This document shows, piece after piece, positions 30,353 through 34,068 of a DNA stretch of 64,000 bases. Below the pieces are notes generated by a model. It did no database searches. It was not told the origin of the DNA and saw only the letters and a program-made list of their open reading frames with translations. The position numbers and the translations under genes are program-made. This DNA is from Escherichia phage vB_EcoM_F1. The stretch lies in sequence record NC_054912.1; one strand, written 5' to 3'. The stretch's first letter is position 1; every line of letters starts with the position of its first letter.

Positions 30353-31191
30353 TAGAACGCTCCTTGAAAAATATTATCACCACTAGTAGGTCTATTATAC
30401 AAATACTCTATGCCACCAGGTTTAATATAGTTCCATGTCTGAAACGGATGCGTCTGATATGGATGATATAGATGATTATAAGGATTAAATCCAGGAGTTC
30501 TCCAGGTAGTGTTCCAAGGAAAAGAATCGTTTTTAATCATCTTTTCAATTACATCTTTTATAGCTTTTTCACTATCAAAACTTTCTTTATTTTCCTTTGG
30601 TGAAAAAAGCTTATTCTCTACATCGTTCCATGTATAAACTCGCTGAGCAGTTTTTGGAATATTGTCACGCTCCCCTCGAGCCATCCAATAAACAGGAACA
30701 TTTAATATTTCACTCGCGTGATCGCAGTGGTGAGCGAGATCGTCAATATAACAAATTACGTTATATTTCTCTTTTGCCTTTTTGAACAACTCTTCTTTTG
30801 AAGAATCATGACCACACATCATTACTTCTGAGAAGGCACCAGGAAAAAGAGCATTTAAATTAAATTGACGATTCAGCAGAGCGTCAATAGAATCACCCAA
30901 TGCTGTAACAGCTACAAAATTATAATCTTCTTTTAATTTGTTAATTACACACAGAGCATCTTTATATGGAGACAAGTAACGAATAAAATCTGAACGATTG
31001 TATTTTTCAATTAACTTGACGCCAAGTTCTTCGTCACAATTAAAGAGTTTACCAGGAGAAATAAATTTCTCATCTTGGATCATTTTTAAAATATGTTCTA
31101 ACGGAAGATTATATTTCTGAGCAAAATAAGGAAGGCCTGATTGCCAGCTTAAACATACTCCATCAATATCAGTTAAAATAGTAGGCTTCAT
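30352..31191 (-). CDS. HAD-superfamily phosphatase/nucleotidase-like protein (30.2 position)
   Basis: 279 aa; N-terminal ILTDIDGV resembles HAD motif I (DxDG). Confidence 0.6.
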   Translation of the reverse strand: MKPTILTDIDGVCLSWQSGLPYFAQKYNLPLEHILKMIQDEKFISPGKLFNCDEELGVKLIEKYNRSDFIRYLSPYKDALCVINKLKEDYNFVAVTALGDSIDALLNRQFNLNALFPGAFSEVMMCGHDSSKEELFKKAKEKYNVICYIDDLAHHCDHASEILNVPVYWMARGERDNIPKTAQRVYTWNDVENKLFSPKENKESFDSEKAIKDVIEKMIKNDSFPWNTTWRTPGFNPYNHLYHPYQTHPFQTWNYIKPGGIEYLYNRPTSGDNIFQGAF

Positions 31192-31652
31192 AGAGAGTCT
31201 CTTAATAGGTTTAACACATCAATAAATTCAGCTTCGGTTAGTATTGTATCATCTTTTGTTAGACCACTAGCCATGCTGTGCTTCAAAACTTTTCCTTTCG
31301 AGGCTTGTAATGCATCACGAAAGCCCTTGTTTTGGATCGCTGCTTCAAAATATGCATTTGTGTATAATTCTTTCCACGCCGGGGAGTATCTTGAAAACGG
31401 AACTCCAAGCCAGAAGAGGGTCCCACGGTCCTGAGCTCTAGCATAAGACCTTCCAGCTTGTTGAGCGGAAAGCCCGGATAACCCAAATATACGACGTTGT
31501 TGTTCAACGTTTTTCACCTTGCATCCTTGGAGGAATCCTTCAAGACCTCCAAATTGAATACCATCCATAACGAAAGGCCATTGGGCGAAATTACTTAATG
31601 CACATGATGGCCACCTAAAATTACTTCTAATCTCTAACTCAGACATTTTCAA
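31188..31652 (-). CDS. NADAR/YbiA-like (DUF1768-type) protein (30.3 position)
   Basis: 154 aa; LSNFAQWPFVMDGIQF...LEGFLQGCK resembles the YbiA/NADAR core FSNFAAWP..DG....EHYFQAQK. Confidence 0.5.
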   Translation of the reverse strand: MKMSELEIRSNFRWPSCALSNFAQWPFVMDGIQFGGLEGFLQGCKVKNVEQQRRIFGLSGLSAQQAGRSYARAQDRGTLFWLGVPFSRYSPAWKELYTNAYFEAAIQNKGFRDALQASKGKVLKHSMASGLTKDDTILTEAEFIDVLNLLRDSL

Positions 31653-33189: not shown

Positions 33190-33208
33190 AACTTTATGCA
33201 ATCTTTGG

Positions 33209-33238
33209 AAAATAAAAAAGGACTCCCGAAGGAGTCCT
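33209..33238 (-). terminator. terminator after the small basic-protein gene
   Basis: GGACTCC-TTCG-GGAGTCC hairpin followed by TTTTTTATTTT on the minus strand. Confidence 0.65.
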
Positions 33239-33242
33239 CAAC

Positions 33243-33419
33243 TTATGCTTTCTGCTTACCAAAACGAGAAGCATCATCTCGAAGAACCGCACGTGCTCGG
33301 CGCATGATCTTCTCAACAGTTTGATTGATACGAGAGTTCGACCCACGCTTGTAGCCAGCGCGTTTAGAATCACCAACTTTCTTTTCAACTGCTTTCTTTG
33401 CTTTAGCTTGTTTTGCCAT
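33243..33419 (-). CDS. small highly basic protein (K/R-rich)
   Basis: 58 aa from ATG 33419 (MAKQAKAKKAVEKKVGDSKRAGYKR...); terminator immediately downstream. Confidence 0.5.
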   Translation of the reverse strand: MAKQAKAKKAVEKKVGDSKRAGYKRGSNSRINQTVEKIMRRARAVLRDDASRFGKQKA

Positions 33420-33819
33420 TATAAATTCTCTTTTAAATGAAAATGCAGGACTTATTGGCATTGCCTGCGCAAGCCCTCAAGGGGAACATAGGTTTTTGGA
33501 TATTTAACGACCAGGATAACCATAAACCCGTCATCATACCTTATAGCTCTTATCTGTTGCACACCGTTAGCTTAAAGGTTCCGGGTTCGATTTCTCGAGG
33601 ATAAGATATATATACTGATGGATATATAGGCCTTGAGGCGTACTCCCGATTGGCCATCACCTCGGGGTAGCATGCACTTGCCGCTATAAGAATAACATTC
33701 AAGAGGTACACCGTAAAACTGCCGGGGTCTTAAAACTATAATGATTCGCAAATCATTAATCAGACAGTTCGACGGCTCCTCGATTTTAGCTCACACTAAG
33801 GCAGTGAATCTCCAATAAA

Positions 33820-34068
33820 TTACTTCAATGTTACCACAAAGTGGCGAACTGCTTTTCGTGCAGCAGAAGCCAAAGGCTTAGCATATTTAAGTTCATCTTT
33901 TTCCTGAAGCTCAGCAGCTAATGCAGTTTGAGCAGGATTCAGATGTTTGAAATAACACAGGATTTCAAGAGCTTCGGCTTCAACATCAATAGATGCGCCA
34001 TAGTTTTCGTGACCATTATTCCATGCGTTTCGTTGCAGTTCAAGAGCGTGTTGTAATTGTTTAATCAT
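33820..34068 (-). CDS. rIII: rIII lysis inhibition accessory protein
   Basis: 82 aa, MIKQLQHALELQRNAWNNGHENYG... Confidence 0.9.
   Translation of the reverse strand: MIKQLQHALELQRNAWNNGHENYGASIDVEAEALEILCYFKHLNPAQTALAAELQEKDELKYAKPLASAARKAVRHFVVTLK

What the first reader, a model, noticed from the sequence alone, without database searches (positions are those of the whole stretch)
33462..33819. About 360-bp ORF-free, GC-enriched island between rIII and the next gene
In a block where genes are otherwise packed with overlaps, no reading frame of 60 codons or more exists on either strand between the rIII stop and the small basic-protein gene. The segment is visibly GC-richer than its surroundings (for example GGCCTTGAGGCGTACTCCCGATTGGCCATCACCTCGGGGTAGCATGCACTTGCCGC). 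It contains a perfect hairpin TAATGATT-TGCG-AATCATTA on the minus strand and a TATATAT/ATATATA palindrome. It could be a structured non-coding RNA, the remnant of a decayed gene or intron, or a cis-acting site. The 30.x series counted here has one gene fewer than recalled for T4, which is compatible with gene decay at this spot.
Basis: seen in the sequence. Interest (0 to 1): 0.45.

Follow-up and report, generated by a model that had tools for sequence, protein, structure and literature searches.

The report
New structured RNA in T-even phages
The "empty" gap after the rIII gene of this T4-like phage holds a 145-base RNA, never annotated as an RNA in any record I opened, that folds into an intricate, evolutionarily conserved shape; about 400 related phage genomes carry it but T4 does not, and its job is unknown.

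Summary
Window 33420-33819 has no gene, and 33462-33819 is 43.9% GC against 36.5% for the window.

The core, 33543-33687 on the minus strand, is a conserved structured RNA. It is not a decayed gene. It lies between rIII and 30.9 in about 400 phage records from at least ten T4-like genera. T4 and RB7 lack it through a clean ~155-bp difference.

Across 21 distinct copies, 98.8% of cells pair and 24 of 44 pairs show compensatory changes. G-U cells outnumber A-C cells 47 to 1, which fixes the RNA strand as the gene-sense strand.

The fold is a perfect four-way junction. One arm ends in a three-way junction carrying a GNRA hairpin. A 6-bp kissing interaction links two arm loops and covaries in four versions with no exception in 41 distinct sequences.

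Rfam 15, ARAGORN, a test against the T4 RNA C/D region, protein libraries and literature searches match nothing.

Function is unknown. My best guess (about 0.4) is an autonomous accessory RNA carried on the rIII-30.9 transcript. A cis-regulator of 30.9 (0.3) and a ribozyme (0.1) remain open.

The rest of the gap consists of smaller conserved RNA modules.

The parts
33543..33687 (-). Core of the conserved structured RNA, from P1 5' strand to P1 3' strand (145 nt). In this phage P1 can extend to 8 bp (33540-33690).
   Evidence: CM hit 33536-33695, 183.7 bits. RNAalifold and pair counts. Coordinates mapped.
33683..33687 (-). P1 5' strand, the closing stem. It pairs with 33543-33547.
   Evidence: 4 of 5 pairs show changes on both sides (AU/UA/GC).
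33680..33682 (-). P2 5' strand (GGC). It pairs with 33629-33631 (GCC). P1, P2, P4 and P5 abut with no unpaired bases, forming a perfect four-way junction.
   Evidence: GGC/GCC becomes GGU/ACC in Yersinia phage fHe-Yen9-01, a compensatory change.
33672..33679 (-). J2/3, a conserved unpaired segment AAGUGCAU. It faces J3/2 (CUCAAG) at 33632-33637.
   Evidence: AAG-GCAU is invariant in all 21 copies, including the most divergent; only the fourth base varies (U, G or A).
33638..33671 (-). P3, a long irregular hairpin arm with bulges. Its sequence is free to change but the hairpin is kept.
   Evidence: 8-9 of its 12-13 pairs covary. The stem sequence is entirely replaced in fHe-Yen9-01 and EcS1, yet still forms a hairpin.
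33654..33659 (-). P3 apical-loop hexamer UGAUGG, one partner of the kissing interaction.
   Evidence: It is the exact complement of the P4 loop in 41 of 41 distinct sequences, in four covarying versions.
33607..33628 (-). Its 6-nt loop CCAUCA (33616-33621) is the other kissing partner.
   Evidence: Stem: 3 of 7 pairs covary and 99.3% of cells pair. Loop.
33600..33606 (-). P5 5' strand (UCUUAUC). It pairs with 33548-33554 (GAUAAGA) and closes a three-way junction.
   Evidence: 100% of cells pair and 3 pairs covary.
33587..33598 (-). P6, a 4-bp hairpin capped by a GNRA tetraloop. The loop is GAAA here, GUAA in some relatives and UAAA or UAAU in three.
   Evidence: 2 of 4 pairs covary (CG/UA/UG). 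The loop reads GNRA only on the minus strand.
33561..33586 (-). P7, a 5-bp stem with a conserved 15-nt loop GAACCUUUAAGCUAA. EcS1 has a 7-nt insertion in the loop.
33555..33560 (-). J7/5, the invariant unpaired segment GCAACA. It is part of the most conserved stretch, GCUAAYGGUGWGCAACAGAU.
   Evidence: Identical in all copies.
33487..33537 (-). Module M2, a separate small conserved RNA motif made of a hairpin plus a candidate pseudoknot. T4 has it too. It lies downstream of the element here and upstream of it in Klebsiella-type phages.
   Evidence: Hairpin base is 100% paired with 2 of 3 pairs covarying. Pseudoknot stem is 77% paired with 5 of 7 pairs covarying, but it is not formed in the T4-type sequence.
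33474..33484 (-). Short G+C hairpin CCCCUUGAGGG at the start of the 30.9 leader (module M4). It is conserved across genera and sits directly after the rIII stop in some.
33688..33783 (-). Module X, a long irregular hairpin found only in Tequatrovirus and Mosigvirus, including T4.
   Evidence: Fold. Present in the T4 intergenic region.
33784..33813 (-). Module M3, a small hairpin with a conserved loop (UGCCUUAGU here, UACCUUAAGU in relatives). It lies right after the rIII stop and directly abuts the element in Klebsiella, Edwardsiella and Yersinia phages.
   Evidence: Stem varies as CAC/GUG, CGC/GCG, UGC/GCA and AGC/GCU, read by eye.
33820..34068 (-). rIII (lysis inhibition accessory protein), the upstream gene on the same strand.
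   Evidence: PHROG 1457, E = 2e-43. 99% identical to T4 rIII.
33243..33419 (-). Gene 30.9, a 58-aa basic protein of unknown function and the downstream gene on the same strand. The only strong intrinsic terminator follows it, at 33218-33239.
   Evidence: terminator.

Best explanation
SHOWN: window 33543-33687 (minus strand, the same sense as rIII and 30.9) encodes a ~145-nt RNA under strong selection for a specific three-dimensional fold. A covarying closing stem P1 leads into a perfect four-way junction (P1, P2-P3, P4, P5). The apical loops of P3 and P4 are complementary over 6 nt, forming a kissing complex. P5 opens into a three-way junction with a GNRA hairpin (P6) and a hairpin with a conserved 15-nt loop (P7). 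Three unpaired junction strands are invariant or nearly so. The scans found no conserved promoter or terminator of its own, and the first strong terminator lies after 30.9. It is therefore most likely made as part of the rIII-30.9 transcript.

INFERRED, about 0.4: it is an autonomous accessory RNA cassette. It would work through its own fold, by binding a protein, a small molecule or copies of itself, either released by processing or acting in place, much as T4 tRNAs and RNAs C and D are carried in longer transcripts. On this reading it does not act as a switch wired to the 30.9 ribosome-binding site. It is dispensable under some conditions, since T4 and most Tequatrovirus records lack it.
For: Structure: 98.8% of 917 cells pair; 24 of 44 pairs have changes on both sides; all 7 helices covary; 0 of 500 shuffles reach the observed values; slid controls pair at 23-41%.

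Strand and molecule: 47 G-U cells against 1 A-C cell, and GNRA loops appear only on the minus strand.

Tertiary contact: the P3 and P4 loop hexamers are exactly complementary in 41 of 41 distinct sequences, in four versions. This holds even where the P3 stem sequence is entirely different.

Selection: the element is 76-97% identical to the window in phages whose rIII DNA is 67-82% identical and whose remaining intergenic sequence is 36-50% identical, except for the near relative L037 at 83%.

Distribution: 396 phage records, always between rIII and 30.9 in every locus examined, in Tequatrovirus, Mosigvirus, Citrobacter phages (Moon, Merlin, CF1), Jiaodavirus, Karamvirus, Marfavirus, Muldoonvirus, Roskildevirus, Kanagawavirus, EcS1 and fHe-Yen9-01.

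Cassette behaviour: sequence conservation stops at P1. The element lies 7 to 133 nt after the rIII stop. It lies before module M2 in some genera and after it in others. In Tequatrovirus the same slot is empty (T4), holds a different ~50-nt hairpin (M5), or holds this element, while the flanks and the 30.9 leader stay the same.

No own promoter or terminator was found.
Against: There are no expression data, so a discrete stable RNA species has not been shown.

Its strict confinement to the 5' untranslated region of 30.9 in every genome fits a cis role equally well.

The thermodynamic z-score of the single sequence is unremarkable (-1.3 to -1.65).

No partner is known.

Kissing within one molecule cannot be told apart from kissing between molecules by sequence alone.

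Many of the 41 sequences are close relatives, so the counts overstate the number of independent events. The four kissing versions and the stem replacements do come from different genera.
Confidence: 0.4

Rival explanations
1. It is a cis-acting regulatory domain in the 5' untranslated region of 30.9. It would be riboswitch-like or a protein-binding operator that senses a ligand and changes translation, stability or processing of the rIII-30.9 message.
For: It always lies upstream of 30.9, on the same strand and inside the transcription unit. Its size, multi-helix junction, tertiary contact and invariant junction nucleotides are typical of aptamer domains. The same intergenic region holds other conserved RNA modules next to the 30.9 ribosome-binding site.
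Against: By eye I found no conserved alternative pairing or expression platform. Distance and intervening modules between P1 and the 30.9 start vary widely, and M2 is sometimes upstream of the element and sometimes downstream. Close relatives keep 30.9 and an identical leader without the element. No Rfam riboswitch family matches, even at E up to 10.
Confidence: 0.3
2. It is a self-cleaving ribozyme of a new class that separates the rIII and 30.9 parts of the transcript.
For: It has a compact fold with invariant junction nucleotides. It sits between cistrons in a phage, a setting where several ribozyme classes are common; this rests on established knowledge, not on a test here. The perfect four-way junction with docking arms recalls the natural hairpin and twister-sister ribozymes.
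Against: No hit to any ribozyme family in Rfam. No recognisable catalytic core. Nothing in the sequence marks a cleavage site.
Confidence: 0.1
3. It is a DNA-level element: a miniature mobile element with terminal inverted repeats, a replication origin, or a protein-binding palindrome cluster.
For: There is a clean presence/absence difference bounded by an 8-bp inverted repeat, CTTATAGC...GCTATAAG. Module order differs between genera.
Against: The 47:1 excess of G-U over A-C pairs shows selection on one RNA strand, not on duplex DNA. There is a single copy in the 64-kb window, and every copy found lies at the same locus. No copy occurs in E. coli genomes or in 185,579 species genomes beyond chance pattern matches. 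The 'terminal repeats' covary as an RNA stem.
Confidence: 0.03
4. It is the remnant of a decayed protein gene or intron, or a small unannotated protein gene.
For: Some GenBank records annotate short 'hypothetical proteins' across it.
Against: All six frames of all 21 copies contain stops. There is no three-base periodicity of variable sites (27/20/18). Copies differ by 1-, 2- and 7-nt indels. There are no PHROG matches for the local ORFs. Substitutions are compensatory in helices. No relative has an intact ORF at the site.
Confidence: 0.01

Closest known systems
Purine and lysine riboswitch aptamers (helical junction held by a loop-loop kissing contact)
   Same: A multi-helix junction in which two arms are tied together by Watson-Crick pairing between their terminal loops (6 bp here). 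It has a closing stem P1, invariant junction nucleotides and a size of 70-180 nt, and it sits upstream of a gene on the same strand.
   Different: No sequence or covariance-model similarity. The junction here is a perfect four-way junction with no unpaired bases. There is no recognisable expression platform, and the distance to the downstream gene varies. No ligand is known.
phi29 packaging RNA (pRNA)
   Same: A phage-encoded RNA of roughly 120-170 nt with a three-way junction and two complementary loops, whose covariation first revealed a loop-loop contact. This comparison rests on established knowledge.
   Different: In pRNA the loops pair between molecules to build a ring on the packaging motor; here the mode is unknown. 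There is no sequence similarity. T4-type packaging needs no RNA. This element is absent from many close relatives, so it cannot be essential for assembly.
T4 stable RNAs C and D (species 1 and 2; 139 and 119 nt)
   Same: Small structured RNAs of T-even phages with unknown function, made within longer transcripts.
   Different: They lie in the tRNA cluster, not here. The covariance model of this element does not match that region of T4. T4 has RNAs C and D but lacks this element.
ROOL and GOLLD, large phage- and prophage-associated RNAs
   Same: Orphan, highly structured RNAs linked to phages. Recent structural work shows that they assemble into multimers through kissing loops; this rests on established knowledge and on the topic of PMC12990946 as listed.
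   Different: They are several times larger. There is no Rfam match here. Multimerisation of this RNA is only a possibility.
PeSL cassettes (promoter-stem-loop mobile regulatory cassettes of T4-type phages; PMC2839356, PMC4122927)
   Same: Short non-coding modules in variable regions of T4-type genomes that sit at the boundaries of insertions, deletions and swaps. The rIII-30.9 interval shows the same kind of module shuffling.
   Different: PeSLs are simple promoter-plus-hairpin units repeated many times per genome. This element is single-copy, 145 nt long, has seven helices and a tertiary contact, and the scan found no promoter. Neither paper mentions rIII or 30.9.

Membership tests
Any Rfam 15 family (4227 covariance models) | Score at or above the family gathering threshold, or at least a suggestive E-value | tested here: not met
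   No hit inside 33543-33687 at E up to 10 when scanning 1.3 kb. Scanning the element alone gave only noise of 9-13 bits. The divergent Yersinia-phage copy gave nothing. The whole window gave nothing at gathering thresholds.
tRNA / tmRNA | Cloverleaf or tmRNA detected by ARAGORN | tested here: not met
   0 genes in the whole window. The plus-strand GGTTCGATT that looks like a T-arm is the complement of hairpin P6, on the non-functional strand.
T4 stable RNA C / RNA D | Homology to rnaC or rnaD of T4 | tested here: not met
   The covariance model R1 finds nothing in the T4 tRNA/rnaC/rnaD region L023.
Riboswitch | Conserved, structurally complex aptamer domain with invariant junction nucleotides | tested here: met
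   Seven covarying helices, a kissing contact and three invariant or nearly invariant junction strands.
Riboswitch | Expression platform: conserved alternative pairing that links the aptamer to a terminator or to the ribosome-binding site of the downstream gene | tested here: not met
   The 3' flank differs between genera, M2 may lie between the element and 30.9, and the gap ranges from a few nt to about 190 nt. No terminator-like site lies next to it. This was judged by eye, with no formal search for alternative pairing.
Riboswitch | Specific binding of a metabolite or ion that changes gene expression | not testable with these tools
   Needs in-line probing and reporter assays.
Self-cleaving ribozyme (hammerhead, hairpin, HDV-like, twister, twister-sister, pistol, hatchet and others) | Match to the conserved core of a known class | tested here: not met
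   No Rfam hit to any ribozyme family.
Self-cleaving ribozyme (new class) | Site-specific self-scission of the transcript | not testable with these tools
   Needs in-vitro transcription and cleavage assays.
Protein-coding gene or pseudogene | A reading frame kept open in relatives, three-base periodicity of substitutions, or similarity to a protein family | tested here: not met
   Stops in every frame of every copy, variable sites 27/20/18 by codon position, frame-breaking indels. No PHROG hit for the local ORFs.
PeSL-type mobile regulatory cassette | Early promoter plus simple stem-loop, repeated many times in one genome | tested here: not met
   Single CM hit in the 64-kb window. The sigma-70-type scan found no promoter in the gap.
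Miniature inverted-repeat mobile element | Multiple copies at unrelated sites, with terminal inverted repeats acting at the DNA level | tested here: not met
   Every copy found lies at the rIII-30.9 locus. The inverted repeat covaries as an RNA stem with G-U pairs.

The most novel reading that the evidence does not exclude
This is the founding member of a new class of complex-folded functional RNA in T-even-type phages. It could be a new riboswitch or ribozyme class. Alternatively, because its two arm loops are perfectly complementary in every copy, it could be an RNA that pairs between molecules into dimers or rings, as phi29 pRNA and the ROOL/GOLLD assemblies do, and serves as an accessory factor such as a decoy or scaffold during infection.
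Probability: 0.3. Interest if true: 0.85.

Novelty: new variant of a known kind. Interest (0 to 1): 0.72.

Why it matters
T4-type phages are among the best-studied of all viruses. Even so, this RNA seems to have escaped notice, probably because T4 itself lacks it. Where database records annotate the spot at all, they call it 'hypothetical protein' or 'terminator'.

RNAs of this size with a multi-helix junction, a covarying tertiary contact and invariant junction bases have usually turned out to be riboswitches, ribozymes or cores of RNA-protein particles. A new class in easily handled coliphages and Klebsiella phages could be tested directly. Natural plus and minus variants already exist among near-identical phages.

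It also matters for annotating therapeutic phage genomes. In addition, the rIII-30.9 interval turns out to be a mosaic of exchangeable RNA modules rather than spacer DNA.

Tried and rejected
1. Known RNA families: four Rfam scans and ARAGORN found nothing. The only 'hit' nearby, Atu_C8 at E = 5e-4, is just the 30.9 terminator at 33204-33287.

2. tRNA-like reading of the plus-strand GGTTCGATT: rejected, because the strand test puts the RNA on the minus strand.

3. Homology to T4 RNAs C and D: none.

4. Host origin: no match in 5,426 E. coli genomes. A 19-nt core pattern in 185,579 species genomes gave 3 matches that fail the model.

5. Wider family:
- Pattern scans of IMG/VR and of metagenomes found only close copies plus chance matches.
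- A gapped two-anchor pattern gave 9 new loci, all rejected by the model.
- A filter-free model search of 19 rIII loci without the element found nothing.

6. Alternative pairing GGCC/GGCC (P3 loop with the P2 3' strand): rejected. P2 shows a compensatory GGU/ACC change in fHe-Yen9-01, and the loop bases are taken by the kissing contact.

7. A UGCA/UGCA contact between J2/3 and J7/5: no covariation support.

8. Own promoter or terminator: none in the consensus scan. A T4-early-like match (TTTTAC, 14 nt, then ATGT followed by TATTCT) ending at the left edge of the element exists only in Tequatrovirus and Mosigvirus. I read it by eye and do not rely on it.

9. Coding potential: rejected.

10. Literature: no paper contains the conserved sequence strings, none links rIII/30.9 to a structured RNA, and the PeSL papers do not cover this locus.

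11. The thermodynamic z-score of the single sequence is not significant. The case rests on comparative evidence.

Full report
**Context**

The window is a Tequatrovirus (T4-like) genome segment, 100% identical over the query to Escherichia phage vB_EcoM_FN. All genes here run on the minus strand: cd, 31.2, 31.1, 31, rIII (33820-34068), the gap, 30.9 (33243-33419) and 30.8.

No ORF of 60 aa or more lies in 33462-33819. GC is 0.439 against a window mean of 0.365, the 96th percentile. Both quoted palindromes are present. The true non-coding interval is 33420-33819, because 30.9 starts at ATG 33419 by homology to T4.

**What the gap contains**

T4 and RB7 have a 244-245-nt rIII-30.9 interval. The window has 400 nt. 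The difference is one clean block of about 155 bp.

That block is 92-94% identical to the same intergenic spot of Klebsiella (Jiaodavirus) and Edwardsiella (Kanagawavirus) phages, whose flanking non-coding sequence cannot be aligned with the window.

A search with the block alone finds 396 phage records covering at least 80% of it. Their identity to the window ranges from 79% to 100%. Hosts include Escherichia, Shigella, Klebsiella, Enterobacter, Citrobacter, Yersinia, Salmonella, Serratia, Erwinia, Raoultella and Edwardsiella.

In every locus I opened, the block lies between 30.9 and rIII. Where anything is annotated under it, the label is 'hypothetical protein', or 'terminator' in one record. 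Only about 175 of 960 records that match the wider 481-nt region carry it.

Between the window and other genera, the element is 76-94% identical in 12 of 14 comparisons. In those same phages rIII DNA is 67-76% identical and the rest of the interval is 36-50% identical. Against the near relative L037 (Mosigvirus-type flanks) the figures are 97%, 82% and 83%. rIII protein identity is 63-76%.

**It is an RNA, and the strand is known**

RNAalifold on 17 distinct copies, aligned by MAFFT without any structural input, predicts 44 pairs. Sixteen of them show compensatory changes and almost none is broken.

A covariance model built from that alignment found 21 copies among 47 rIII loci from IMG/VR. 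Two are divergent: Escherichia phage EcS1 at 111 bits and Yersinia phage fHe-Yen9-01 at 103 bits.

On these 21 sequences:
- 98.8% of cells form standard pairs.
- 24 of 44 pairs show changes on both sides.
- Every one of the seven helices covaries.
- No shuffle out of 500 reaches the observed values.
- Structures slid by 1-3 columns pair at only 23-41%.

There are 47 G-U cells and one A-C cell. On the opposite strand those G-U cells would be mismatches. The selected molecule is therefore RNA of the minus strand, the sense of the flanking genes.

Coding is excluded. Stops occur in all frames of all copies, variable sites show no codon periodicity, copies differ by 1-, 2- and 7-nt indels, and no protein family matches.

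**Architecture (RNA 5' to 3', window coordinates descending)**

- P1 (33683-87 with 33543-47) is a closing stem whose sequence is free but always pairs.
- P1, P2 (GGC/GCC), P4 and P5 abut with no unpaired base. This makes a perfect four-way junction.
- P2 leads through a conserved internal loop (AAGUGCAU facing CUCAAG) into the long hairpin P3.
- P5 (UCUUAUC/GAUAAGA) encloses a three-way junction. It holds P6, a 4-bp hairpin with a GNRA loop (GAAA or GUAA; UAAA or UAAU in three copies). It also holds P7, with a conserved 15-nt loop.
- P7 is followed by the invariant GCAACA.

A scan for non-nested covariation revealed a tertiary contact. The six bases of the P4 loop are the exact complement of six bases in the P3 apical loop. 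This holds in all 41 distinct sequences collected, in four versions:

| P3 loop / P4 loop | Sequences | Notes |
|---|---|---|
| CGAUGG / CCAUCG | 23 | |
| UGAUGG / CCAUCA | 13 | includes the window |
| CUAUGG / CCAUAG | 2 | |
| CAAUGA / UCAUUG | 3 | Cronus, EcS1 and fHe-Yen9-01 |

In fHe-Yen9-01 the P3 stem has a completely different sequence, yet it still presents the matching hexamer.

**Is it known?**

- Rfam 15 gives nothing, even at E up to 10 on the element alone, on a divergent copy, or on the whole window.
- ARAGORN gives nothing.
- The model does not match the T4 region that holds RNAs C and D.
- E. coli genomes hold no copy.
- Pattern scans of species genomes, IMG/VR and metagenomes recover only T4-like phage copies plus chance matches that fail the model.
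- Full-text searches for the conserved strings and for the topic find nothing. The papers on mobile regulatory cassettes of T4-type phages do not mention this locus.

I therefore treat it as an undescribed family. The caveat is that the literature library is incomplete.

**How it probably works**

The consensus scan shows no promoter or terminator in the gap. The first strong terminator follows 30.9. The RNA is thus most likely made as part of the rIII-30.9 transcript; this is an inference.

Three observations argue that it is a self-contained cassette rather than a switch wired to 30.9:
- Conservation stops exactly at P1.
- Its distance from the rIII stop ranges from 7 to 133 nt, and its order relative to another conserved module (M2) differs between genera.
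- In Tequatrovirus the same slot is empty (T4), holds an unrelated ~50-nt hairpin, or holds this element, while the flanks and the 30.9 leader stay the same.

I therefore favour an autonomous accessory RNA that acts through its fold by binding a partner (0.4). A cis-regulatory aptamer for 30.9 comes second (0.3) and a new self-cleaving ribozyme third (0.1). DNA-level or pseudogene readings are effectively excluded.

Whether the loops kiss within one molecule or between molecules cannot be decided from sequence. The P3 arm is much longer than P4, so kissing within one molecule would need a sharp bend at the internal loop.

**The rest of the gap**

It is not spacer. It is made of smaller modules that recur, in shuffled order, across genera:
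- M3 (33784-33813) is a small hairpin with a conserved loop.
It occurs only in Tequatrovirus and Mosigvirus, and T4 has it.
- M2 (33487-33537) is a hairpin plus candidate pseudoknot. The hairpin base is 100% paired. The pseudoknot is 77% paired with 5 of 7 pairs covarying, though it is not formed in the T4-type sequence.
- M4 is the G+C hairpin at 33474-33484 plus the stem before the 30.9 ribosome-binding site.

**Verdict**

The element is a well-supported new family of structured RNA that I could not find described anywhere. Its tertiary architecture is unusually clear, its function is unknown, and it can be tested directly in tractable phages.

Noticed in passing
window 33487-33537 (minus); also T4 (L024) and nearly all rIII loci L025-L068: Module M2 is a second conserved RNA motif, and T4 has it. 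It starts with a conserved AUGAUG, then a covarying hairpin with loop UUNNNRGUUAU, whose loop can pair with a stretch about 25 nt downstream to form an H-type pseudoknot. The pseudoknot covaries in most genera but is not formed in the T4-type sequence.
   Followed up: partly
L025, L027, L030, L031, L035 (about 50 nt at the slot the element occupies in the window); a similar unit in L042: At exactly the site where the window carries the 145-nt RNA, other Tequatrovirus and Mosigvirus phages carry an unrelated ~50-nt hairpin (CUAUCACGCGUCAGAAAAAGGUUAUCUGUCUAAGUCGUG). Its closing and inner stems appear to covary. The site behaves as a slot for exchangeable RNA cassettes.
   Followed up: no
window 33784-33813 (minus); L035, L046, L054, L063, L039, L067: Module M3 is a small hairpin whose 3-bp stem varies (CAC/GUG, CGC/GCG, UGC/GCA, AGC/GCU) around a conserved loop UACCUUAAGU. 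The loop resembles the P7 loop of the main element (ACCUUUAAG). In Klebsiella, Edwardsiella and Yersinia phages it directly abuts P1.
   Followed up: no
   Followed up: partly
window 33690-33727 (minus): Read by eye, TTTTAC, 14 nt, then ATGT followed by TATTCT resembles the T4 early-promoter consensus. It would start transcription at about the first base of P1, and its -10 part is supplied by the left edge of the insertion, so T4 lacks it. It occurs only in Tequatrovirus and Mosigvirus and was not found by the sigma-70 scan.
   Followed up: no
window 33433-33537 (minus): The P5 3' strand (GAUAAGAG) is followed 9 nt later by AUGAUG, opening a 34-aa ORF across M2 and the 30.9 leader. In other genera the same AUGAUG opens ORFs of only 3-16 codons, so it is unlikely to be a gene.
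   Followed up: partly
By homology the gene starts at 33419 and encodes 58 aa. In non-Tequatrovirus genera, the conserved UAUUUCUCC(A/G)AAAUGGAAGA just before the start could partly sequester the ribosome-binding site.
   Followed up: no
window 33204-33287 (minus): The only Rfam match with a low E-value near the finding (Atu_C8, 31 bits against a threshold of 50) is simply the strong intrinsic terminator after 30.9.
   Followed up: yes
L063, L064 versus the window: The 30.9 genes of two phages whose rIII is only 67% identical to the window are 97% identical to it at protein level. This points to recent recombination within this small region.
   Followed up: no
window 31300-31600: A second local GC peak (0.47-0.48) lies inside the 154-aa ORF at 31188-31652. 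It is coding sequence, not another RNA island.
   Followed up: yes
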